A DNA stretch of 64,000 nt from a virus (Duplodnaviria; Caudoviricetes): IMG/VR virus record IMGVR_UViG_3300035670_000193, positions 1,154 to 65,153 of that record; one strand, written 5' to 3'. The notes under the pieces were generated by a model. That model did not search any database, had not been told where the DNA came from, and was given only the letters and a program-made list of their open reading frames with translations. Both the position numbers and the translations under genes were made by a program. The stretch's first letter is position 1, and each line of letters starts with the position of its first letter. Positions 57,141 through 64,000 of this stretch are shown piece after piece.

Positions 57141-57486
57141 AGGTAATGTTAAAAAAGGTTGGGGTAGCGAATACATTTTTGCGACCAATGACAAGTATTG
57201 TGGTAAGTTTATGAATTTCCATGAAGGCGCTAAATTCTCCATGCACTTTCATTCCGAAAAAGATGAGACATGGTATGTACTAAAAGGAAAATTTATCGTA
57301 AAATATATCGATACAAAAAATGCAGAAATACAAGATAAAGAATTAAATACTGGTGATGTTTGGCACAACCCACCTTTGTTACCACACCAATTAATATGTG
57401 TCGAACAAGGTACTATTATTGAAGTGTCAACACCAGATTCCGTTGAAGACAATTATAGAGTGATGCCTGGAGATTCACAAAAATGA
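57130..57486 (+). CDS. Cupin (mannose-6-phosphate isomerase-like)
   Basis: KGWG.E, SMHFH..KDETW, HQL, EVSTPD. Confidence 0.75.
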   Translation: MRLEGNVKKGWGSEYIFATNDKYCGKFMNFHEGAKFSMHFHSEKDETWYVLKGKFIVKYIDTKNAEIQDKELNTGDVWHNPPLLPHQLICVEQGTIIEVSTPDSVEDNYRVMPGDSQK

Positions 57487-57977
57487 AACAAAAGTTTGTT
57501 GATGCATATATGGATGTGGCAGAAAGGTTTGCCAAATTGTCTAGTGCAAAACGGTTACAAGTTGGTGCCATCATTGTCAAAGATGACCGAATTATTTCAA
57601 TTGGATACAATGGTATGCCTTCTGGTTGGACCAATGATTGTGAGGAAACCGAGTTCGTTTTGAATAGTGAAATCTACCAAACTCCAGAAGAGATGGAGAA
57701 AATGGGTTATCAGAGAACCGATAAAGGTAATTGGCATAAAAGCAGAACTAAACCAGAAGTCATCCATGCTGAAGCTAATGCTATCGCTAAGCTGGCCAAA
57801 GGGAGTGAGTCTGGAGATGGTTCCGTAATGTTCCTAACTCATTCTCCATGCATAGAATGTGCAAAACAGATATATACAGCTGGAATAAAGAAAGTTTACT
57901 TTAAGAACCACTACCGAAATACTCAAGGAATTAACTTTTTGGAAAAATGTAACGTGGAAGTGGTTGAATATGAGTAG
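57483..57977 (+). CDS. dCMP deaminase
   Basis: VGAIIV, GYNG, HAEANA, PCIECAK. Confidence 0.9.
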   Translation: MKQKFVDAYMDVAERFAKLSSAKRLQVGAIIVKDDRIISIGYNGMPSGWTNDCEETEFVLNSEIYQTPEEMEKMGYQRTDKGNWHKSRTKPEVIHAEANAIAKLAKGSESGDGSVMFLTHSPCIECAKQIYTAGIKKVYFKNHYRNTQGINFLEKCNVEVVEYE

Positions 57978-58326
57978 TTGGGGTTACCACTTAGTCATCG
58001 ATGCCAAAGGTTGTGATACCACTTTAGTCAAAAATTGTGAGTATATACAAACTTTTGTGTCTGAAATGGTAGAAAAAATCAAAATGGTACCATATGGTGA
58101 CCCAATTTTGGCACATTTTGGTCCAGAGCCTTGTAATACCGGATGGACCGTGATACAATTAATTGAAACATCTAGTATTGTTGGCCATTTTATGGATGAA
58201 AGTGGTGACCTTTATCTGGATGTTTTTAGTTGTAAAGAATTTGATAAAAACATAGTTATTGAGTTTTTAAAGAAAAGCTTTAAACCGAAAAAAGTGAAGA
58301 GTAAATTTATCAAAAGGCAAGCATAA
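57970..58326 (+). CDS. speD: S-adenosylmethionine decarboxylase-like protein
   Basis: G.HL..D..GC, QLIETSS (cleavage site region), YLDVFSCK.F. Confidence 0.75.
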   Translation: MSSWGYHLVIDAKGCDTTLVKNCEYIQTFVSEMVEKIKMVPYGDPILAHFGPEPCNTGWTVIQLIETSSIVGHFMDESGDLYLDVFSCKEFDKNIVIEFLKKSFKPKKVKSKFIKRQA

Positions 58327-58346
58327 CTTTTTAAGAGGAAGTAAAA

Positions 58347-58844
58347 ATGAAGTTAAGCATAACTAAGTGTCCAGATAAAAAACTTTTTCGACCTTTTGTA
58401 AAAAGAGCTGCGTTATTTTTTGCTCAAGAATTGATGACTCCAAAAATGTTGGAGAATATTTCAGTATCAATTAAATTTGATAAAAATTTAAATGCCTTTG
58501 GATATGCTGGAATTTTAGATTATAATGACAGCAATAAACCAAGAGAATTTGAAATTGAATTGCATCCAGGAATTGGAGCGCATGATATTTTAGAAACTTT
58601 AGCGCATGAAATGGTTCACGTGAAACAATATGCATATAGCGATTTAAACGAAGCGTGTACTAGATGGCGTGGCAAAAAAGTCGAAAATATGGACTATTAC
58701 GATGAACCTTGGGAAATTGAAGCAAATGGTATATCGTTTAGTTTGTTACAAAAATTTGCAGCAAAAGAAAAACTTTGGGAAGTATTTGAAGATTTTCAAA
58801 ATCCAAACAGAGTTATAGAAAATGAACCTATAAAATGGTTATAA
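58347..58844 (+). CDS. HExxH zinc metallopeptidase-like protein
   Basis: LAHEMVHVKQ...PWEIEA. Confidence 0.75.
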   Translation: MKLSITKCPDKKLFRPFVKRAALFFAQELMTPKMLENISVSIKFDKNLNAFGYAGILDYNDSNKPREFEIELHPGIGAHDILETLAHEMVHVKQYAYSDLNEACTRWRGKKVENMDYYDEPWEIEANGISFSLLQKFAAKEKLWEVFEDFQNPNRVIENEPIKWL

Positions 58845-58873
58845 AAAAACAACTGGTATAAGAAAAATTGAGG

Positions 58874-58893
58874 TGTTGTAAAAAAACAACACT
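58874..58893. repeat. Palindromic operator-like motif TGTTG-N8-CAACA, copy 1
   Basis: Exact 20-bp reverse complement of 60071-60090; both copies lie just upstream of TTGACA boxes. Confidence 0.7.
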
Positions 58894-58907
58894 ACGTTAA
58901 AAAAAGC

Positions 58908-58936
58908 TTGACAAATTTTGGATATATAAGTACAAT
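58908..58936 (+). promoter_or_regulatory. sigma70 promoter P1 of the tRNA array
   Basis: TTGACA, 17 nt, TACAAT. Confidence 0.8.
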
Positions 58937-58967
58937 CGTTTCATTAAATAATTTTTGGAGATTTAAA

Positions 58968-59084
58968 GTGTTTACCCGTTTACAACTCATATCGACACAT
59001 AAGCAGTCTAGTGATTATCGCACATTTATTTGTGGCGAGAATACACCAGCGCTATGGCTTGGCGAAGGGTTTTGTAAAGGATAA
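58968..59084 (+). CDS. Putative 38-aa attenuator leader peptide of the tRNA array
   Basis: GGAG RBS at 58957-58960, GTG start, MFTRLQLISTHKQSSDYRTFICGENTPALWLGEGFCKG, TAA stop; 32 distinct codons in 38. Confidence 0.65.
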   Translation: MFTRLQLISTHKQSSDYRTFICGENTPALWLGEGFCKG

Positions 59085-59110
59085 AATGTAACAAAAATTA
59101 GAATCCAAAC

Positions 59111-59150
59111 ACAAAACCCTAGACCTAAAAAATCTAGGGTTTTTTGTTTT
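59111..59150 (+). terminator. Intrinsic terminator (attenuator) upstream of the tRNA array
   Basis: aaaaccctaga/tctagggtttt stem with a U-tract; its 5' arm is also complementary to 59066-59075. Confidence 0.8.
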
Positions 59151-59158
59151 GGTTTTAC

Positions 59159-59170
59159 TGCTCTTTAAAA
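59159..59170 (+). promoter_or_regulatory. boxA-like antitermination site
   Basis: TGCTCTTTAAAA versus the rrn boxA consensus TGCTCTTTAACA. Confidence 0.65.
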
Positions 59171-59187
59171 ATTAGGTGTTGTTTTGT

Positions 59188-59220
59188 GGGGGTGTGGTGT
59201 ATCGGCTAGCACCCCTTCCA
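59188..59220 (+). pseudogene. tRNA remnant / minihelix ending in UCCA
   Basis: GGGGGTG...CACCCCT-TCCA acceptor-like stem with a D-arm-like insert; no anticodon or T arm. Confidence 0.45.
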
Positions 59221-59222
59221 TT

Positions 59223-59313
59223 CCTTGGATAGTTTAATGGTAAAACAGCGGGCTTATACCCCGTAGCGACAGATAATCGGCTGATATAGGTTCGAATCCT
59301 ATTCCAAGGACCA
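59223..59313 (+). tRNA. tRNA-Ile(TAT) with long variable arm
   Basis: ccttgga/tccaagg acceptor, gcggg-cttatac-cccgt, ~21-nt variable region, TTCGAAT, ACCA. Confidence 0.8.
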
Positions 59314-59385
59314 TATTAAAGCATATTCACTTGTCTCAAGGAGACAGGTTTAGATTCTCAAGGAGTTTCTGAATATGCTTTAATA
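59314..59385 (+). ncRNA. Long-stem spacer element 1 (candidate structured RNA)
   Basis: 16-bp perfect terminal inverted repeat tattaaagcatattca/tgaatatgctttaata enclosing two ctc-aag-gag hairpins. Confidence 0.5.
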
Positions 59386-59393
59386 CGGTCAAT

Positions 59394-59467
59394 GTTGTTC
59401 CTAGTGTAGTGGTCGCACACCTGTCTGTGAAACAGGTAGAGAGGGTTCGATTCCCCGGTTCAACCCA
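59394..59467 (+). tRNA. tRNA-His(GTG)
   Basis: G-1:C73, cctgt-ctgtgaa-acagg, TTCGATT, CCA; two U-U mismatches in the acceptor stem. Confidence 0.8.
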
Positions 59468-59468
59468 T

Positions 59469-59544
59469 GCAACTCTAGCTGATGTGGTCATAGCGGTGGT
59501 CTGAAGAGCCATTGAAACAGGTTCGATTCCTGTGGGTTGCACCA
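59469..59544 (+). tRNA. tRNA-Phe(GAA)
   Basis: Cloverleaf with gtggt-ctgaaga-gccat; ACCA. Confidence 0.88.
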
Positions 59545-59546
59545 AT

Positions 59547-59621
59547 GCCGGGATAGCTCAGAGGCAGAGCACCGTCTTGATAAGGCGGGGGTCGAGATTT
59601 CAAAATTCTCTCCTGGTACCA
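59547..59621 (+). tRNA. tRNA-Ile(GAT)
   Basis: ccgtc-ttgataa-ggcgg; atypical T arm gagat-ttcaaaa-ttctc; ACCA. Confidence 0.8.
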
Positions 59622-59627
59622 AGTTTT

Positions 59628-59710
59628 GCGGAGGTGGTGTAAAGGTAGCCACGATAGTCTTAGAAACTATTGCCAAAAGCGTGTGAGTTCGATTCTCACC
59701 CTCCGCACCA
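59628..59710 (+). tRNA. tRNA-Leu(TAG)
   Basis: atagt-cttagaa-actat, variable arm, ACCA. Confidence 0.88.
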
Positions 59711-59723
59711 GAACCAAAAATAA

Positions 59724-59811
59724 GGAAGTGTGGTCGAGTGGTCTATGGCGCTAGTCTTGAAAACTAGAGGCTCGAAAGGGTCCGTGAGTTCGAATCTCAC
59801 CGCTTCCGCCA
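59724..59811 (+). tRNA. tRNA-Ser(TGA)
   Basis: ctagt-cttgaaa-actag, long variable arm, GCCA. Confidence 0.9.
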
Positions 59812-59817
59812 AATTAT

Positions 59818-59904
59818 GGAGAGTTGACAGAGTGGTAATGTAGCGGATTGCTAATCCGTCGTTTCGAAAGAGGCGCATAGGTTCGAATCCTATACTCTCC
59901 GCCA
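59818..59904 (+). tRNA. tRNA-Ser(GCT)
   Basis: gcgga-ttgctaa-tccgt, long variable arm, GCCA. Confidence 0.9.
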
Positions 59905-59909
59905 AATGT

Positions 59910-59984
59910 ATCTCGCTGGTGTTAACGGCAGCATAGCGGTCTCCAAAACCGAAGGACGGGGTTCGAATCCCTGGCGGGGTGCCA
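59910..59984 (+). tRNA. tRNA-Trp(CCA)
   Basis: cggt-ctccaaa-accg, TTCGAAT, GCCA. Confidence 0.85.
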
Positions 59985-59991
59985 ATTTAAT

Positions 59992-60069
59992 GCATACGTG
60001 GCAGAGTGGTCAAATGCAACAGTCTGCAAAACTGTAAAGTCGCTGGTTCGAATCCAGCCGTATGCTCCA
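59992..60069 (+). tRNA. tRNA-Cys(GCA)
   Basis: acagt-ctgcaaa-actgt, U73, CCA. Confidence 0.9.
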
Positions 60070-60070
60070 G

Positions 60071-60090
60071 AGTGTTGTTTTTTTACAACA
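60071..60090. repeat. Palindromic operator-like motif, copy 2
   Basis: Reverse complement of 58874-58893. Confidence 0.7.
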
Positions 60091-60097
60091 GTACCGC

Positions 60098-60144
60098 TTG
60101 ACAAATTAATGTGGTACTGTTATGATTATATTTGTTCTTTAAAA
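60098..60144 (+). promoter_or_regulatory. Internal sigma70 promoter P2 of the tRNA array plus boxA-like site
   Basis: TTGACA-17-TATGAT (60098-60126); TGTTCTTTAAAA at 60133-60144. Confidence 0.75.
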
Positions 60145-60149
60145 ACGTA

Positions 60150-60226
60150 GCTGGGGGAGTGAGCGCCACACATGGACGCCTATTCTTAAACAACAGCGAC
60201 TATCGGGAGATAGCCAACGTGCCCCT
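60150..60226 (+). ncRNA. Candidate small structured RNA
   Basis: GC-rich island with gggg/cccc ends, a gcgcca-caca-tggacgc hairpin and a ctatc-ggga-gatag GNRA hairpin. Confidence 0.35.
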
Positions 60227-60234
60227 TATTTTAT

Positions 60235-60310
60235 GCACCATTCGTCTATCGGTTTAGGACAACGCCCTTTCACGGCGTAAAGAGGGGTTCGATTCCCCTA
60301 TGGTGTACCA
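60235..60310 (+). tRNA. tRNA-Glu(TTC)
   Basis: acgcc-ctttcac-ggcgt; ACCA. Confidence 0.88.
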
Positions 60311-60312
60311 TT

Positions 60313-60397
60313 GGGTAGCGAGTAGCATTGGTGACTACACCTGACTGTAAATCAGGCGCCTCAGGCATACGGGGTTCGATTCCCTGGCTACCCACCA
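60313..60397 (+). tRNA. tRNA-Tyr(GTA)
   Basis: cctga-ctgtaaa-tcagg, variable arm, ACCA. Confidence 0.88.
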
Positions 60398-60505
60398 TAT
60401 TGAAGTGCATTACTCTCAGCAACAAAGAGCATCTGCGGAGAGGACACGATAACGCTCGACACAATCGAGGCTGCACGGTCGCCGACTCAGTAGTGTGCTT
60501 CAATA
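60398..60505 (+). ncRNA. Long-stem spacer element 2 (candidate structured RNA)
   Basis: 17-bp terminal stem tattgaagtgcattact/agtagtgtgcttcaata (with G-U pairs), related to element 1. Confidence 0.5.
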
Positions 60506-60506
60506 T

Positions 60507-60584
60507 GGTTCGTTAGAATAGCTGGCCTAATTCGTCTGCCTGTCACGCAGAAGACCACGGGTTCGAATCCCGTACGGACCGCCA
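60507..60584 (+). tRNA. tRNA-Asp(GTC)
   Basis: tctgc-ctgtcac-gcaga; GCCA. Confidence 0.88.
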
Positions 60585-60610
60585 TTTGTTTTTAATAAAA
60601 AGGATCCAAA

Positions 60611-61096
60611 ATGCCAAATTATGATTTTGCAAAAGACTTGCCAATCGCTAAGAAAACAGAAAAACAAATTGCTGATTATCTTTGTGAAACGCAAGACATG
60701 AGTTTGGTTGGAACATCAGATACAATTAGTGGTGTTCGTAAATCAGATTTTGATGTGCGTATGAAATTTAATAAAAGTGGAAAAGTTGTTGATATTGAAA
60801 TCAAAGAAGATTTTAGTTGTGCGAGAACAGGTAATATAGGTGTTGAATTTTCTAGTTGGGGTCGCCAATCAGGAATTGAAGTGTCTAAGGCAGACTACTA
60901 CCTATATAAAGTTCACACAGCAGATGGTCGAAAAAGTGTATACATAATTCAGACAAAAAAATTAAAAGAAATGATTGAAAATAAACTCTATCATCGTATT
61001 GTTACGGGGGGTGACCCTGGTTCTGAAAGTAAAAATTATTTGTTTACATTGGCAGTAGTAAAAGAGAATTTTAAATTTTTAGGTTTCATTGTCTAG
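60611..61096 (+). CDS. PD-(D/E)XK nuclease-fold protein inside the tRNA array
   Basis: E..FDV..DIEIKED..TGNIGVE..SGI..SKADYY motif; AAGGA RBS. Confidence 0.65.
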   Translation: MPNYDFAKDLPIAKKTEKQIADYLCETQDMSLVGTSDTISGVRKSDFDVRMKFNKSGKVVDIEIKEDFSCARTGNIGVEFSSWGRQSGIEVSKADYYLYKVHTADGRKSVYIIQTKKLKEMIENKLYHRIVTGGDPGSESKNYLFTLAVVKENFKFLGFIV

Positions 61097-61165
61097 TAGC
61101 TCAGTTGGTAGAGTAGATGACTGTTAATCATTTGGTCCCTGGTTCGAGCCCAGGCTAGACAGCCA
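61090..61165 (+). tRNA. tRNA-Asn(GTT)
   Basis: gatga-ctgttaa-tcatt; GCCA; overlaps the nuclease stop codon. Confidence 0.88.
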
Positions 61166-61170
61166 GTTTC

Positions 61171-61246
61171 GCCGGAGTAGCTCAGTCGGTAGAGCAGCTC
61201 ACTTGTAATGAGAAGGTCGAGGGTTCGATTCCTTTCTCCGGCACCA
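61171..61246 (+). tRNA. tRNA-Thr(TGT)
   Basis: ctca-cttgtaa-tgag; ACCA. Confidence 0.9.
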
Positions 61247-61249
61247 AAT

Positions 61250-61326
61250 TGCGGGTTAGTAGTTCTGGAGAACTCATCGGTCTCATAAGCCGGTCTAGGT
61301 AGGTTCGATTCCTGCACCCGCTACCA
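61250..61326 (+). tRNA. tRNA-Met(CAT), initiator-like
   Basis: U1-U72 mismatch, tcggt-ctcataa-gccgg, ACCA. Confidence 0.75.
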
Positions 61327-61328
61327 AA

Positions 61329-61562
61329 CCCGCTGGGGTAACGCCCGGCTACTGTGACCCGCAGGAAGTGAAGTGAGTTCGTTACTCAGGGGTGGTTCCC
61401 CTCCTTGGATGGAGGCATCGAAAGGTGGGTCTTACCGAACCGGCGTTGGCAATACGAGAATCCTTTGTGGTCGAGGAGTGGGCGGAAGGAGAGCAGGTAA
61501 GACTGGAAGATATCTCGGTCAGTAAGTCTCTCTATAATTACCACCGTACAAAGGAAGCATCT
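61329..61562 (+). ncRNA. Candidate ~230-nt structured RNA of unknown class
   Basis: GC-rich non-tRNA segment between tRNA-Met and tRNA-Pro with several short and long-range helices. Confidence 0.55.
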
Positions 61563-61565
61563 TTT

Positions 61566-61644
61566 CCGAGATTAGGCTAGTCTGGTTTAAGTCGCCTGCT
61601 TTGGGAGCAGGAAATCGCAGGTTCGAATCCTGCATCTCGGACCA
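61566..61644 (+). tRNA. tRNA-Pro(TGG)
   Basis: cctgc-tttggga-gcagg; C1-G72, ACCA. Confidence 0.9.
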
Positions 61645-61661
61645 AATTCTAGGAGGTAAAT

Positions 61662-61859
61662 ATGGCAGATGGTGGTAAAGGAAGTAATTCAAGACCATTT
61701 AGTGTCGATAAAAAAACTTTTGATAAAAATTGGGATGCAATTTTCAAAAACAATGAAGAAAGAAGAGAAAAAATAGAGAAGTTAAATAATGAATATCAAG
61801 ACATTCTTTCAACAGAAGAATGTGTAATTGAAGCTCTTAATAAAATTGAAAAAAAATAA
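61662..61859 (+). CDS. Small hypothetical protein
   Basis: AGGAGG RBS; MADGGKGS..RP.SV...F..NWDAIF pattern. Confidence 0.65.
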   Translation: MADGGKGSNSRPFSVDKKTFDKNWDAIFKNNEERREKIEKLNNEYQDILSTEECVIEALNKIEKK

Positions 61860-63343
61860 TGAATCATGCTTTAATATTTAATTTGGGTACAGATAAAAAT
61901 GGTTACACAGTTAGGTCTGTGGGAGCATATAGAATCGCATCTTTTTTGCGTGAACACCAATGGGATGTGGAGGTCATAGATTTTTTTGATACATTTGAAA
62001 TAAATGAATTATTTAATTTATTGAAAAGTAGAGTTAATAAAAATACTAAATTTTTTGGTTTAAGTTGGCTTTTTCCATACTACGATAATGATTTGAATTT
62101 AAAATTAGAAACGATAAAGGTCACATATAAAACAATACCTATAATATCTGGTTCTAATGCTCATTTAAATATGAACTATGATGCAATTGATTATCATGTT
62201 TATGGTTATGGTGAAAATGCTCTTTTAGAATTATTAAAATATTTGTTTTCGAATAGCAATAGACCACCATTTAATATTAATTTAAATGGTCACAAGACAA
62301 AATATTTGGATGCAAACAAATATTATCCTTCTTTTCCTATGCCAGACTTGACTGTGAGATATGAAAAAAGAGATTTCTTATTAAAAGATGAATTTTTAAA
62401 TACACAAATGTCCAGAGGTTGTATATTTAAATGTAAATTTTGTAATTTTCCAAACATAGGTATTAAAGATGATTACACAAGGTCTGTTGAAAGTATTGAT
62501 GAGGAATTAAGATTAAATTATGACCAATGGGGAATAAAAAATTATGTTTTAGCAGATGAAACTTTTAATGACAGAACTGAAAAAATAATTAAGTATGCTG
62601 ATGCTGTTGAAAAATTAAATTTTAAACCTTGGTTTTCAGCTTTTATGAAACCAGAATTAATGGCTACAAGAAGAGGAGATTGGGAACATCTAGTGAGAAT
62701 GGGAGTTTTTGGACATTTCTATGGCATAGAATCTTTTAATAAAGAAACAAGAAAAATTATTTACAAAGGATATGATGCCGATAAAATGAAAGCAAAAGTT
62801 TTAGAAATTTCAAATTACTTTAAATCTTACAATTCGAACTCATTAGTAACTTTAAGTTTTATTGTTGGTTTACCTGAAGAAACAAAAGAAACTATAAAAG
62901 AAACAAAAAAATGGTTGATAGATAATTGGAAAAATGATAACACAGTTGTTTTTGCACTATCATTATCTAAAGGTTTAAATGAAAGAAAATCTGAGTTAGA
63001 TTTAACTTGTCAAAATTATGGATATATTGAAATGACTGAACATGAAGTTATAGAAGAAATAAAAAAACAATCTGTGTTTAGTCAAGGTTTAATGACACCT
63101 ACAGTTCTTCATTGGAAAAATAAACATATGAACTATTTGGATGCTTGTAAAATAGCTGATGATTTTTTCAAATCAACTCACAACGCAAGTACTAAAAAAC
63201 CAGACATTTTTGGTATGGGTGCCTTTGGTATTGATGGTGATGTAGAAGATAGAATCAAATTTGGTAATGTTGATTTTATTGATATTAGTAAAAGAGCAAA
63301 TGAAAAAATTAAAAATTATAGAGATAAAAAATTATCACTATAA
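61859..63343 (+). CDS. Radical SAM protein with cobalamin-binding-like N-terminus
   Basis: SRGCIFKCKFC (CxxxCxxC), DETFND, GIESF, FIVGLP.ET; N-terminal GAYRIA..G.GE. Confidence 0.85.
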   Translation: MNHALIFNLGTDKNGYTVRSVGAYRIASFLREHQWDVEVIDFFDTFEINELFNLLKSRVNKNTKFFGLSWLFPYYDNDLNLKLETIKVTYKTIPIISGSNAHLNMNYDAIDYHVYGYGENALLELLKYLFSNSNRPPFNINLNGHKTKYLDANKYYPSFPMPDLTVRYEKRDFLLKDEFLNTQMSRGCIFKCKFCNFPNIGIKDDYTRSVESIDEELRLNYDQWGIKNYVLADETFNDRTEKIIKYADAVEKLNFKPWFSAFMKPELMATRRGDWEHLVRMGVFGHFYGIESFNKETRKIIYKGYDADKMKAKVLEISNYFKSYNSNSLVTLSFIVGLPEETKETIKETKKWLIDNWKNDNTVVFALSLSKGLNERKSELDLTCQNYGYIEMTEHEVIEEIKKQSVFSQGLMTPTVLHWKNKHMNYLDACKIADDFFKSTHNASTKKPDIFGMGAFGIDGDVEDRIKFGNVDFIDISKRANEKIKNYRDKKLSL

Positions 63344-63354
63344 GTAATAAAATA

Positions 63355-63430
63355 GGGGATGTAGCTCAGTTGGGAGAGCAGGTGCTTTGCAAGCATCAGG
63401 TCGCAGGTTCGAAGCCTGTCATCTCCACCA
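63355..63430 (+). tRNA. tRNA-Ala(TGC)
   Basis: G3-U70, ggtgc-tttgcaa-gcatc, ACCA. Confidence 0.9.
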
Positions 63431-63434
63431 TAAT

Positions 63435-63507
63435 GCGGGAGTTCTCCTGGGAGAGGACTCAGCCTTCCAAGCTGATGGAGAGGGTTCGAATCCCTTCTCC
63501 CGCTCCA
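63435..63507 (+). tRNA. tRNA-Gly(TCC)
   Basis: tcagc-cttccaa-gctga, U73, CCA; atypical D arm. Confidence 0.82.
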
Positions 63508-63513
63508 AATAAT

Positions 63514-63598
63514 GCGATTGTGGTGAAATAGGTAGACACAAGAGACTTAAAATCTCTCGACTTCGGTCGTGCCGGTTCGATTCCGGCCAATCGCACCA
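63514..63598 (+). tRNA. tRNA-Leu(TAA)
   Basis: agaga-cttaaaa-tctct, variable arm, ACCA. Confidence 0.9.
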
Positions 63599-63603
63599 AA
63601 TAT

Positions 63604-63679
63604 CCGACCGTAGCGTAGTGGATAACGCAGGTGTCTTCTAAACATCTATACGGGGGTTCGATTCCTCCCGGTCGGGCCA
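63604..63679 (+). tRNA. tRNA-Arg(TCT)
   Basis: ggtgt-cttctaa-acatc; GCCA. Confidence 0.87.
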
Positions 63680-63758
63680 TATGGATAAATAATAAGTTGT
63701 GAGTATTGCCATTTTCTTTTGATTTAAATAATGTAAACTACAAAAGGAAAAGGCTAAA

Positions 63759-64000
63759 ATGAAAAAAATAATTGTCGGAATCGTTATGATGACGGCGGCT
63801 GTTTCAGTATTCGCACAAGCTATTGTAACTGAATCTACATCCAATAGCACAACAAATTCAAATTCAAAATCTGAGACTACTGTAAAGTCTCCACCTCCAT
63901 CAGCAATTGCGCCATCAGTCAACACGATGAACAATGACCTATGTACTGTAGGCGTATCTGGTGCAGCACAAACACAAATTCTCGGTATTGAATTGGTTCT
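63759..64000 (+). CDS. Exported protein with signal peptide (3' truncated by the window edge)
   Basis: MKKIIVGIVMMTAAVSVFAQA signal peptide, then SPPPSAIAP..DLC; open to the window end. Confidence 0.65.
   Translation, partial: MKKIIVGIVMMTAAVSVFAQAIVTESTSNSTTNSNSKSETTVKSPPPSAIAPSVNTMNNDLCTVGVSGAAQTQILGIELV

What the first reader, a model, noticed from the sequence alone, without database searches (positions are those of the whole stretch)
58968..59084. The leader ORF looks like a pan-codon sensor rather than a single-amino-acid sensor
Seen: the first 18 codons are all different, 28 of the first 31 are distinct, and 32 of 38 overall. All amino acids except internal Met and Val occur. Synonymous codons are mostly spread out: Leu TTA/CTC/CTA/CTT, Ser TCG/TCT/AGT, Gln CAA/CAG, Lys AAG/AAA, Glu GAG/GAA, Arg CGT/CGC, Ile ATA/ATT, Gly GGC/GGG/GGA. 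These include GC-ending codons that are uncommon in this AT-rich genome. Established: classical leaders repeat one amino acid. Inference: this one polls nearly every tRNA species, matching an array that supplies tRNAs for 17 amino acids within the window, including those for ATA, CTA and TTA.
Basis: partly seen in the sequence, partly recalled or inferred. Interest (0 to 1): 0.8.

Follow-up and report, generated by a model that had tools for sequence, protein, structure and literature searches.

The report
All-amino-acid leader peptide before phage tRNAs
A tiny reading frame that uses almost every amino acid sits inside a stop-or-go RNA switch just upstream of this phage's tRNA genes, so it probably raises tRNA transcription whenever ribosomes decode slowly, but this is untested at the bench.

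Summary
Codon diversity of 32/38 is reached by 3 of 17,194 windows of this phage's genes, but by 5.3% of shuffles of the ORF itself, so the window alone is only suggestive.

Relatives carry the case. The unit (promoter, ORF, terminator) recurs in 40 related IMG/VR loci and 57 more found by motif. The ORF is intact in 41/41 and 52/52 full-length units. A tRNA array follows in 53/53 motif-found units with room.

Of 59 distinct peptides (30-47 aa), 41 contain all 20 amino acids, counting the initiator Met, and 12 contain 19. The other two frames average 15-16, and column-shuffled chimeras never reach the observed mean.

The ORF's 3' end pairs alternatively with the terminator's 5' arm, with compensatory changes.

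Best reading: a trp-type attenuator whose leader polls all amino acids. Spread over synonymous codons is only weakly supported, and leader codons are not matched to the array's anticodons.

This scan has noted the same family before on other DNA. I found no published account.

The parts
58874..58893 (.). 20-bp palindrome just upstream of the promoter. In relatives a similar palindrome lies between the terminator and the second promoter.
Evidence: Function not tested.
58908..58936 (+). Sigma-70-type promoter: TTGACA, 17 nt, TACAAT (11 of 12 matches). The inferred transcript start is near 58943.
   Evidence: The homologous promoter is aligned in 40 loci. The start site is inferred from spacing only.
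58957..58960 (+). GGAG Shine-Dalgarno-like motif, 7 nt before the GTG start.
   Evidence: Relatives have either a purine-rich tract plus ATG/GTG/TTG (20 units) or an ATG within 8 nt of the -10 box (18 units, all ATG).
58968..59084 (+). Leader ORF of 38 sense codons plus TAA, with 19 different amino acids counting the initiator.
   Evidence: The family ORF is intact in 41/41 and 52/52 full-length units.
58975..58989 (+). Region 1 (codons 3-8): the 5' base of the long hairpin, able to pair with region 2.
   Evidence: dG12 is -9.9 in the window. Statistically weak across the family (8 of 39 at p<=0.05).
59016..59043 (+). Apical hairpin inside the ORF (TATCGC...). Its third codon positions are conserved.
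   Evidence: Compensatory inner-stem changes between clades were seen by eye.
59065..59083 (+). Region 2: the last codons (Gly-Phe-Cys-Lys-Gly) and the stop. It pairs either with region 1 or with region 3.
   Evidence: window dG23 -18.2, z -4.7.
59102..59121 (+). Region 3: the linker plus the 5' arm of the terminator, complementary to region 2 (antiterminator).
   Evidence: In one search, 84.8% of cells are paired and 7 of 11 pairs have changes on both sides.
59116..59145 (+). Intrinsic terminator: an 8-bp stem, 9-nt loop and T6. The pattern scan missed it because its loop limit is 8.
   Evidence: In one search, 80.2% of cells are paired and 6 of 8 pairs have changes on both sides.
59159..59170 (+). 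boxA-like motif (TGCTCTTTAAAA) between the terminator and the first tRNA.
Evidence: a like motif follows the second promoter in 20 of the 22 relatives that have one. Function not tested.
59223..60069 (+). First block of nine tRNA genes. No promoter-like site lies between the terminator and the first tRNA.

Best explanation
The ORF is the leader peptide of a ribosome-mediated (trp-type) transcription attenuator at the head of the phage tRNA array.

Shown: a strong promoter, a short ORF with start signals, an intrinsic terminator, and a conserved alternative pairing between the ORF's 3' end (region 2) and the terminator's 5' arm (region 3). The peptide family keeps nearly all 20 amino acids in about 36 residues.

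Inferred: without a ribosome, region 2 stays inside the long ORF hairpin and the terminator forms. A ribosome that reaches the stop codon covers region 2 and the terminator again forms. A ribosome delayed upstream leaves region 2 free to pair with region 3, so RNA polymerase runs on into the tRNA genes. Because the leader contains every amino acid and no run of any one, shortage of any charged tRNA could delay the ribosome. The switch would then report general decoding speed rather than one amino acid.

In the window no other promoter precedes the first nine tRNAs, so they would depend on read-through.
For: Anatomy.

Homology: nhmmer finds the unit in 43 of the 80 loci plus the window. The family ORF is intact in 41/41 full-length units. 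A motif scan found 57 further non-identical units; 52/52 full-length ones keep the ORF, and 53/53 with at least 150 nt of room have tRNA-Gln 45-114 nt downstream.

Start signals: 18 units have an ATG within 8 nt of the -10 box, and 20 have a 5' UTR with ATG, GTG or TTG.

Amino-acid completeness:
- 41 of 59 distinct peptides have all 20 amino acids and 12 have 19.
- Frame 0 averages 19.1, against 15.8 and 15.4 in the other two frames, and exceeds both in 34/36.
- Against own stop-free shuffles the median P is 0.03, with 23/36 below 0.05. Fisher's test over 15 clade representatives gives p = 1e-8.
- Column-shuffled chimeras reach the real mean in 0 of 5,000 trials; 2.2 all-20 peptides are expected and 19 are seen.
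- Of 4,387 small ORFs in all loci, 40 have all 20 amino acids, and 31 of those are family members.

Antiterminator: duplex dG is -13 to -23 against a terminator of -10 to -17, and 36/39 have p<=0.05. On an unfitted MAFFT alignment, 7/11 pairs have double changes, matched by 1 of 500 shuffles.

Geometry: the stop codon lies -5 to +18 nt from the end of region 2, and the terminator starts 26-34 nt after the stop, in 38/38 units.

Ribosome-mask folding: free RNA forms the terminator in 31/38. An antiterminator window of at least 5 codons appears in 31/38. The terminator forms with a ribosome at the stop in 36/38.

No promoter-like site lies between terminator and first tRNA in 13/35 units, including the window. 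Arrays of 20 or more tRNAs cover 17-20 amino acids.
Against: - There are no expression or translation data. The RNA runs held only contig fragments.
- The window's own values are borderline against its composition: codon diversity P = 0.053 and amino-acid diversity P = 0.10.
- The coding signal is weak. pN/pS is 0.67 in frame 0 against 0.85 and 1.28 in the other frames. Third positions in the core are conserved, so RNA structure explains part of the 'conserved peptide'.
- The 1:2 pairing is not significant (8/39 at p<=0.05).
- In the equilibrium model the window flips to the antiterminator only with the A site at codons 1-5, and 7/38 units have no such window. Late codons may therefore not be sensed.
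- 22/35 units have a second promoter after the terminator, so most arrays do not depend on read-through alone.
- Leader codons are not enriched for codons read by the array.
- 35/59 peptides lack an internal Met, and one short clade has only 16-18 amino acids.
Confidence: 0.6

Rival explanations
1. The switch is ribosome-dependent but senses only whether ribosomes are present and keeping pace with RNA polymerase, for example through a few early codons over region 1. The all-amino-acid make-up would then play no part in sensing.
For: In the ribosome-mask model, the antiterminator is favoured mainly with the A site in the first 5-24 codons. In the window this holds only for codons 1-5. Amino acids placed in or after region 2 cannot signal in a simple model.
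Against: It leaves unexplained why 41/59 peptides carry all 20 amino acids. It also leaves unexplained why only the reading frame shows this, and why losses appear to be made good elsewhere in the peptide (His/Arg exchange between clades).
Confidence: 0.15
2. The unit is an autonomous small gene or small RNA with its own promoter and terminator. It lies beside the tRNA array only by conserved gene order and does not control it.
For: 22/35 units have a good second promoter plus a boxA-like motif after the terminator. The ORF region is structured (mean z -2.1 in 15 representatives; window transcript z -3.45). Third positions of the core are conserved.
Against: An ordinary terminator does not need a conserved, covarying pairing between region 2 and its own 5' arm. 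In 13/35 units the first tRNA follows the terminator with no promoter-like site between them, as close as 7 nt. The peptide has no confident fold (pLDDT 54, pTM 0.14) and no Pfam, PHROG or Rfam family.
Confidence: 0.12
3. The terminator/antiterminator choice is set by a protein or an RNA, such as a tRNA binding the apical hairpin, and not by a translating ribosome. The open frame would be incidental.
For: The apical hairpin is the most conserved part at the nucleotide level, and pN/pS is weak.
Against: The ORF is open in 93/93 full-length units, while the other frames are stop-free in 4/36 and 0/36. Start codons fit their context, with ATG only where there is no leader. No T-box or other Rfam match was found.
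Confidence: 0.08
4. The codon diversity is a chance or compositional by-product of a balanced, GC-richer stretch.
For: Shuffles of the ORF itself reach 32 distinct codons in 5.3% of cases. Uniform codon use reaches it in 6.6%.
Against: The pattern recurs across clades, is specific to the reading frame, and exceeds composition-matched shuffles.
Confidence: 0.03

Closest known systems
Leader-peptide transcription attenuators of amino-acid operons (trpL, hisL, leuL, pheL). Named from my own knowledge, not from a call.
   Same: A promoter-proximal short ORF, an intrinsic terminator, and a mutually exclusive antiterminator that uses the terminator's 5' arm. The stop codon is placed so that a terminating ribosome covers region 2.
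   Different: There is no run of codons for one amino acid; instead nearly all 20 amino acids occur about once or twice. The controlled genes are tRNAs, not biosynthetic enzymes. The element is viral, and some relatives are leaderless mRNAs.
Multivalent leaders (thr: Thr + Ile; ilvGMEDA: Ile, Leu, Val). Recalled.
   Same: One leader reports on more than one amino acid.
   Different: Those leaders poll two or three amino acids with repeated codons. This one polls 19-20 without repeats.
Leader ORFs that sense stalled ribosomes in general, as in antibiotic-inducible resistance genes such as ermC, bmrCD and vmlR. Recalled.
   Same: Any slowing of the ribosome on a short upstream ORF changes a downstream RNA structure.
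   Different: Those systems rely on drug-dependent arrest at particular peptide motifs and control resistance genes. No arrest motif was tested here.
Long tRNA array (trn operon) of Anabaena sp. PCC 7120, induced under translational stress (PMC8421152, passages read; PMC10272220, abstract and outline read).
   Same: An accessory tRNA array is switched on when translation is impaired.
   Different: Control there acts at the promoter, through direct repeats bound by the repressor TrcR. The words 'leader', 'attenuat' and 'terminator' occur 0 times in PMC8421152.
Earlier notes of this scan on other genomes: e1-5679282, e1-5679294, e1-6051197, e1-6051203 and e1-6051215 (same family), and e1-5618024 and others (codon-matched leaders in giant phages).
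   Same: An all-amino-acid leader inside a terminator/antiterminator switch before the tRNA arrays of T4-like phages. These notes share short sequence words with this stretch.
   Different: They are AI notes, not publications. The window's copy has a GTG start with a Shine-Dalgarno motif, no second promoter, and tRNA-Ile(tat) rather than tRNA-Gln as the first gene.

Membership tests
Ribosome-mediated leader-peptide attenuator | A short ORF with translation start signals just downstream of a promoter | tested here: met
   Promoter with 11/12 matches. GGAG lies 7 nt before the GTG. The ORF is intact in 41/41 and 52/52 units.
Ribosome-mediated leader-peptide attenuator | An intrinsic terminator between the leader ORF and the controlled genes | tested here: met
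   An 8-bp GC-rich stem plus T6 at 59116-59145. 80.2% of cells are paired and 6/8 pairs have double changes. The first tRNA lies 7-114 nt downstream.
Ribosome-mediated leader-peptide attenuator | An antiterminator pairing that excludes the terminator and overlaps the end of the ORF | tested here: met
   36/39 units have p<=0.05 and the median dG is -18.2. 84.8% of cells are paired and 7/11 pairs have double changes, matched by 1 of 500 shuffles. Slid controls give 24-64% paired.
Ribosome-mediated leader-peptide attenuator | A 1:2 pairing that holds region 2 when no ribosome is present | tested here: inconclusive
   It is present in the MFE folds, and free RNA forms the terminator in 31/38. The 1:2 duplex beats shuffles in only 8/39.
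Ribosome-mediated leader-peptide attenuator | A run of control codons for the regulated amino acid | tested here: not met
   1 of 59 peptides has a run of three or more identical residues. The commonest residue occurs 3-6 times. This is the point of difference, so I file it as a variant.
Ribosome-mediated leader-peptide attenuator | Read-through that depends on translation of the leader | not testable with these tools
   Only contigs of RNA runs were available, and they cover the terminator and tRNA parts only.
T-box or other described RNA leader (Rfam) | A match to a curated covariance model | tested here: not met
   In 58000-64000 at E<=1 the matches were tRNAs and tRNA-overlapping chance hits, plus a sub-threshold ohsC_RNA match over the terminator (32 bits against a gathering score of 50, E 0.061).
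rrn-type boxA antitermination site | A boxA-like motif downstream of the promoter of an untranslated operon | tested here: inconclusive
   A motif is present at 59159-59170, and after the second promoter in 20 of the 22 relatives that have one. The consensus is recalled and binding was not tested.

The most novel reading that the evidence does not exclude
The leader is a 'tRNA census'. By spelling all 20 amino acids once or twice in about 36 codons, it lets loss of any single host tRNA stall the ribosome and open transcription into a near-complete phage tRNA set. The loss could come from host shut-off, codon-usage mismatch, or a host anticodon nuclease acting as defence. The element would then be an inducible counter-measure to tRNA depletion that regulates itself through its own products.
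Probability: 0.35. Interest if true: 0.9.

Novelty: new variant of a known kind. Interest (0 to 1): 0.8.

Why it matters
Phage tRNA arrays are usually discussed as constitutive cargo that corrects codon-usage mismatch or replaces degraded host tRNAs. A translated switch at their head would mean that the phage measures how well the cell is decoding and adjusts its tRNA supply to match.

A leader peptide kept complete for all amino acids is a design not described for classical attenuators, which repeat one to three amino acids. It is directly testable. In a reconstituted transcription-translation system, leaving out any one amino acid or tRNA decoded upstream of region 2 should raise read-through. 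It would also give a compact natural reporter of global decoding speed.

Tried and rejected
- DNA searches of the phage collection found nothing useful. The window unit gave no match. A relative's unit gave only a 47-nt chance match to an Enterococcus phage.
- The neighbouring WLM-like gene in Methylophilales phage Melnitz is not followed by a tRNA array, so no cultured carrier was identified. The major capsid protein is 67% identical to those of Melnitz and of Pelagibacter phage Mosig.
- Pfam and PHROGs gave no family. Rfam gave none.
- RNAalifold on the plain MAFFT alignment predicted 0 pairs, because the hairpin arms are misaligned by indels. I therefore used alignment-free duplex energies and named structures.
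- AlphaFold2 on the 36-row alignment gave pLDDT 54 and pTM 0.14 with no secondary structure. This is no evidence for a folded peptide.
- A profile search of 1.84 billion representatives found 21 clusters at E<=0.001. The 18 that I read are all the same family, some with N-terminal extensions through the promoter. The family is rarely called as a gene and I saw no wider relatives.
- Sequencing runs: 20 runs were listed, and the RNA runs held 5-6% of the sampled words. Laid contigs of two RNA runs cover only the terminator (37 nt, apparently a relative) and tRNA parts. Contigs cannot show RNA ends or levels, so nothing follows for expression.
- Codon-anticodon matching of the leader to the array is not enriched.
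- Literature searches found no account of leader-peptide attenuation of tRNA genes or of an all-amino-acid leader. One search found the Anabaena papers. Supplements were not opened and may hold details of the Anabaena promoter mapping. Subscription-only papers are not covered by these searches.

Rows dropped:
- Identical sequences were collapsed throughout: 41 units gave 36 distinct CDSs, and 39 distinct transcripts were used.
- A1 holds 34 of those 39 transcripts. L045, L056, L069, L074 and L078 were left out as near-duplicates.
- L050 was dropped because my terminator finder picked the wrong hairpin for it.
- L021, L030, L031 and L032 carry partial or distant versions and were not counted.

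Full report
WHAT IS THERE. The stretch 58968-59084 is a GTG-to-TAA frame of 38 sense codons.

The surrounding anatomy is as follows:
- a near-consensus promoter, TTGACA-17-TACAAT, at 58908-58936;
- GGAG 7 nt before the GTG;
- 31 nt after the stop, an 8-bp GC-rich hairpin followed by T6 at 59116-59145;
- a boxA-like motif at 59159;
- the first of 20 tRNA genes at 59223.

No promoter-like site lies between the terminator and that tRNA.

IS THE CODON DIVERSITY MORE THAN CHANCE? Against this phage's own genes it is extreme. 38-codon windows average 23.0 distinct codons, and 3 of 17,194 reach 32. Off-frame stop-free windows reach 32 in 0.07% of cases.

Composition accounts for much of this. The ORF is 43% GC in a 35% GC window. 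Stop-free dinucleotide shuffles of the ORF itself average 28.5 and reach 32 in 5.3% of cases.

RELATIVES. No cultured phage matched the DNA. The capsid protein places the phage among T4-like Kyanoviridae, 67% identical to Methylophilales phage Melnitz.

The neighbouring WLM-like gene (58347-58844) brought in 80 IMG/VR loci. A nucleotide profile of the unit found it in 43 of them plus the window, 40 at full length. All 41 full-length units, window included, keep a homologous ORF in the same frame that starts downstream of the -10 box.

Start signals fit translation. In 18 units an ATG lies within 8 nt of the -10 box, which would give a leaderless mRNA, and the codon is always ATG. In 20 units a purine-rich tract precedes ATG, GTG or TTG.

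A motif scan that did not rely on the neighbouring gene found 57 further non-identical units. All 53 with at least 150 nt of downstream sequence have tRNA-Gln 45-114 nt on, heading arrays of up to 32 tRNAs. All 52 full-length ones keep the ORF.

THE PEPTIDE FAMILY IS AN AMINO-ACID PANGRAM. Of 59 distinct peptides (30-47 residues, median 36), 41 contain all 20 amino acids counting the initiator Met. Twelve contain 19, three contain 18, two contain 17 and one contains 16. Counting internal residues only, 18 have all 20 and 28 have 19, and Met is the usual absentee (35 of 59).

Four controls were run:
(a) Frame control. The same nucleotides read in the other two frames give 15.8 and 15.4 different amino acids against 19.1, and frame 0 exceeds both in 34 of 36. 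This control keeps both composition and hairpin complementarity.
(b) Shuffle control. Against own stop-free dinucleotide shuffles the median P is 0.03, with 23 of 36 below 0.05. Fisher's test over 15 representatives less than 60% identical to each other gives p = 1e-8, although these share ancestry.
(c) Column control. Shuffling residues within alignment columns keeps each column's conservation. It gives a mean of 17.73 (sd 0.17), and 0 of 5,000 shuffles reach 19.11. It predicts 2.2 all-20 peptides where 19 are seen. So completeness is held by compensation between positions. One example is that clades with Tyr-His in place of Tyr-Arg carry Arg where the others carry His.
(d) Small-ORF control. 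Of 4,387 distinct ORFs of 30-47 codons in all six frames of all loci, 40 have all 20 amino acids, and 31 of those are family members.

In the phage's real proteins, 15 of 17,194 windows of 38 residues have all 20. No peptide shows the repeated control codons of classical leaders.

At the level of synonymous codons the signal is weaker. Given each peptide, distinct-codon counts exceed expectation with median P 0.18; 10 of 36 fall below 0.05, and the window gives 0.008. Rare codons are 2.3 times more frequent than expected, 236 against 104. Leader codons are not preferentially those read by the array. The supportable claim is therefore 'pan-amino-acid'. 'Every tRNA species' is not supported.

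THE RNA SWITCH. The ORF region folds as a long imperfect hairpin (mean z -2.1 in 15 representatives). Its apical stem keeps even third codon positions. This explains why part of the peptide looks conserved and why pN/pS is only 0.67.

The last codons of the ORF (region 2, Gly-Phe-Cys) are the reverse complement of the linker plus the 5' arm of the terminator (region 3):
- Alignment-free duplex energies are -13 to -23 kcal/mol (median -18.2), against -10 to -17 for the terminator hairpin. They beat shuffles at p<=0.05 in 36 of 39.
- On a MAFFT alignment not fitted to any structure, 84.8% of cells pair and 7 of 11 pairs show changes on both sides (1 of 500 shuffles matches). Slid controls pair at 24-64%.
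- The terminator itself pairs in 80.2% of cells, with 6 of 8 pairs doubly changed.

The stop codon lies -5 to +18 nt from the end of region 2, and the terminator begins 26-34 nt after the stop, in 38 of 38 units.

I also ran a crude equilibrium model with a 30-nt ribosome mask:
- the terminator forms in free RNA in 31 of 38;
- the terminator forms with a ribosome at the stop in 36 of 38;
- the antiterminator forms over at least 5 consecutive A-site positions in 31 of 38, mostly early codons, and in the window only codons 1-5.

The 1:2 pairing that should hold region 2 in free RNA is present in the folds but is not significant by itself (8 of 39).

HOW IT MOST LIKELY WORKS. The parts and their conservation are shown. 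The logic below is inferred.
- Without a ribosome, or with one that reaches the stop in time, the terminator forms.
- A ribosome delayed upstream of region 2 lets region 2 capture region 3, and transcription continues into the tRNAs.
- A leader that contains each amino acid but repeats none would respond to shortage of any charged tRNA, or simply to slow decoding overall.

In 13 of 35 units, including the window, nothing promoter-like separates the terminator from the first tRNA. In 22 of 35 a second promoter and a boxA-like motif follow, so read-through there adds to a basal level. Complete arrays in relatives carry tRNAs for 17-20 amino acids, which matches the breadth of the leader.

WHAT WEAKENS IT.
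- There are no transcript or ribosome data.
- The window's own statistics are borderline.
- Late codons may not be sensed.
- Elongator Met is often not polled.
- One short clade has only 16-18 amino acids.
- The peptide may have some other role, although it has no predicted fold and no family.

COMPARISON AND NOVELTY. The element works like a trp-type attenuator and meets four of that family's structural criteria. It fails the criterion of repeated control codons, so I class it as a new variant. The nearest published biology I could find is the Anabaena tRNA array, which is induced by translational stress but controlled by the repressor TrcR at the promoter, not by a leader. Four other literature searches found nothing.

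This scan has already noted the same family on other genomes, with the same reading, and a broader class of codon-matched leaders before the tRNA arrays of giant phages. I reached my reading before I saw those notes. They are unchecked AI notes and count as agreement, not as independent evidence.

Noticed in passing
window 58874-58893 and 60071-60090; relatives L038-L079 between terminator and second promoter: A TGTTG...CAACA palindrome precedes the promoter here and also the second tRNA promoter at 60098. In relatives a like palindrome sits just upstream of the second promoter, after the terminator. The window's single promoter therefore resembles the relatives' second promoter, as if the leader unit had been moved behind it or the intervening promoter had been lost.
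   Followed up: partly
window 59159-59170 and 60133-60144; relatives: A boxA-like motif (TG[CT]TCTTTAAAA) follows the tRNA promoters. It is present after the second promoter in 20 of the 22 relatives that have one.
   Followed up: partly
L001-L033, gap after the WLM-like gene: The relatives closest by the neighbouring gene lack the pangram leader. Between a strong promoter and tRNA-Thr they carry a different conserved Lys-rich ORF of about 55 aa. Directly after the promoter lies a stretch whose translation looks like a tRNA T-arm, possibly an undetected tRNA-like RNA.
   Followed up: no
L021 and L032: A shorter, distant version of the leader (about 25 aa) sits before tRNA-Trp or tRNA-Ser. It may be a further branch of the family.
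   Followed up: no
window 59223-59313: The first tRNA is Ile with anticodon tat. It is 91 nt long with a long variable region, which is unusual for tRNA-Ile.
   Followed up: no
window 58885-59114 in run X5: In one DNA run the contigs of a close strain stop at 58884 and resume at 59115. The promoter and leader stretch is thus the part not covered, which could mean that the leader is a hotspot of strain variation or only an assembly break.
   Followed up: no
window 57483-58844: Upstream genes look like a dCMP deaminase, a small pyruvoyl-type decarboxylase-like protein and a WLM/SprT-like metalloprotease (HExxH). These are judged by eye from the translations. One hit is annotated as a WLM protease domain protein.
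   Followed up: no
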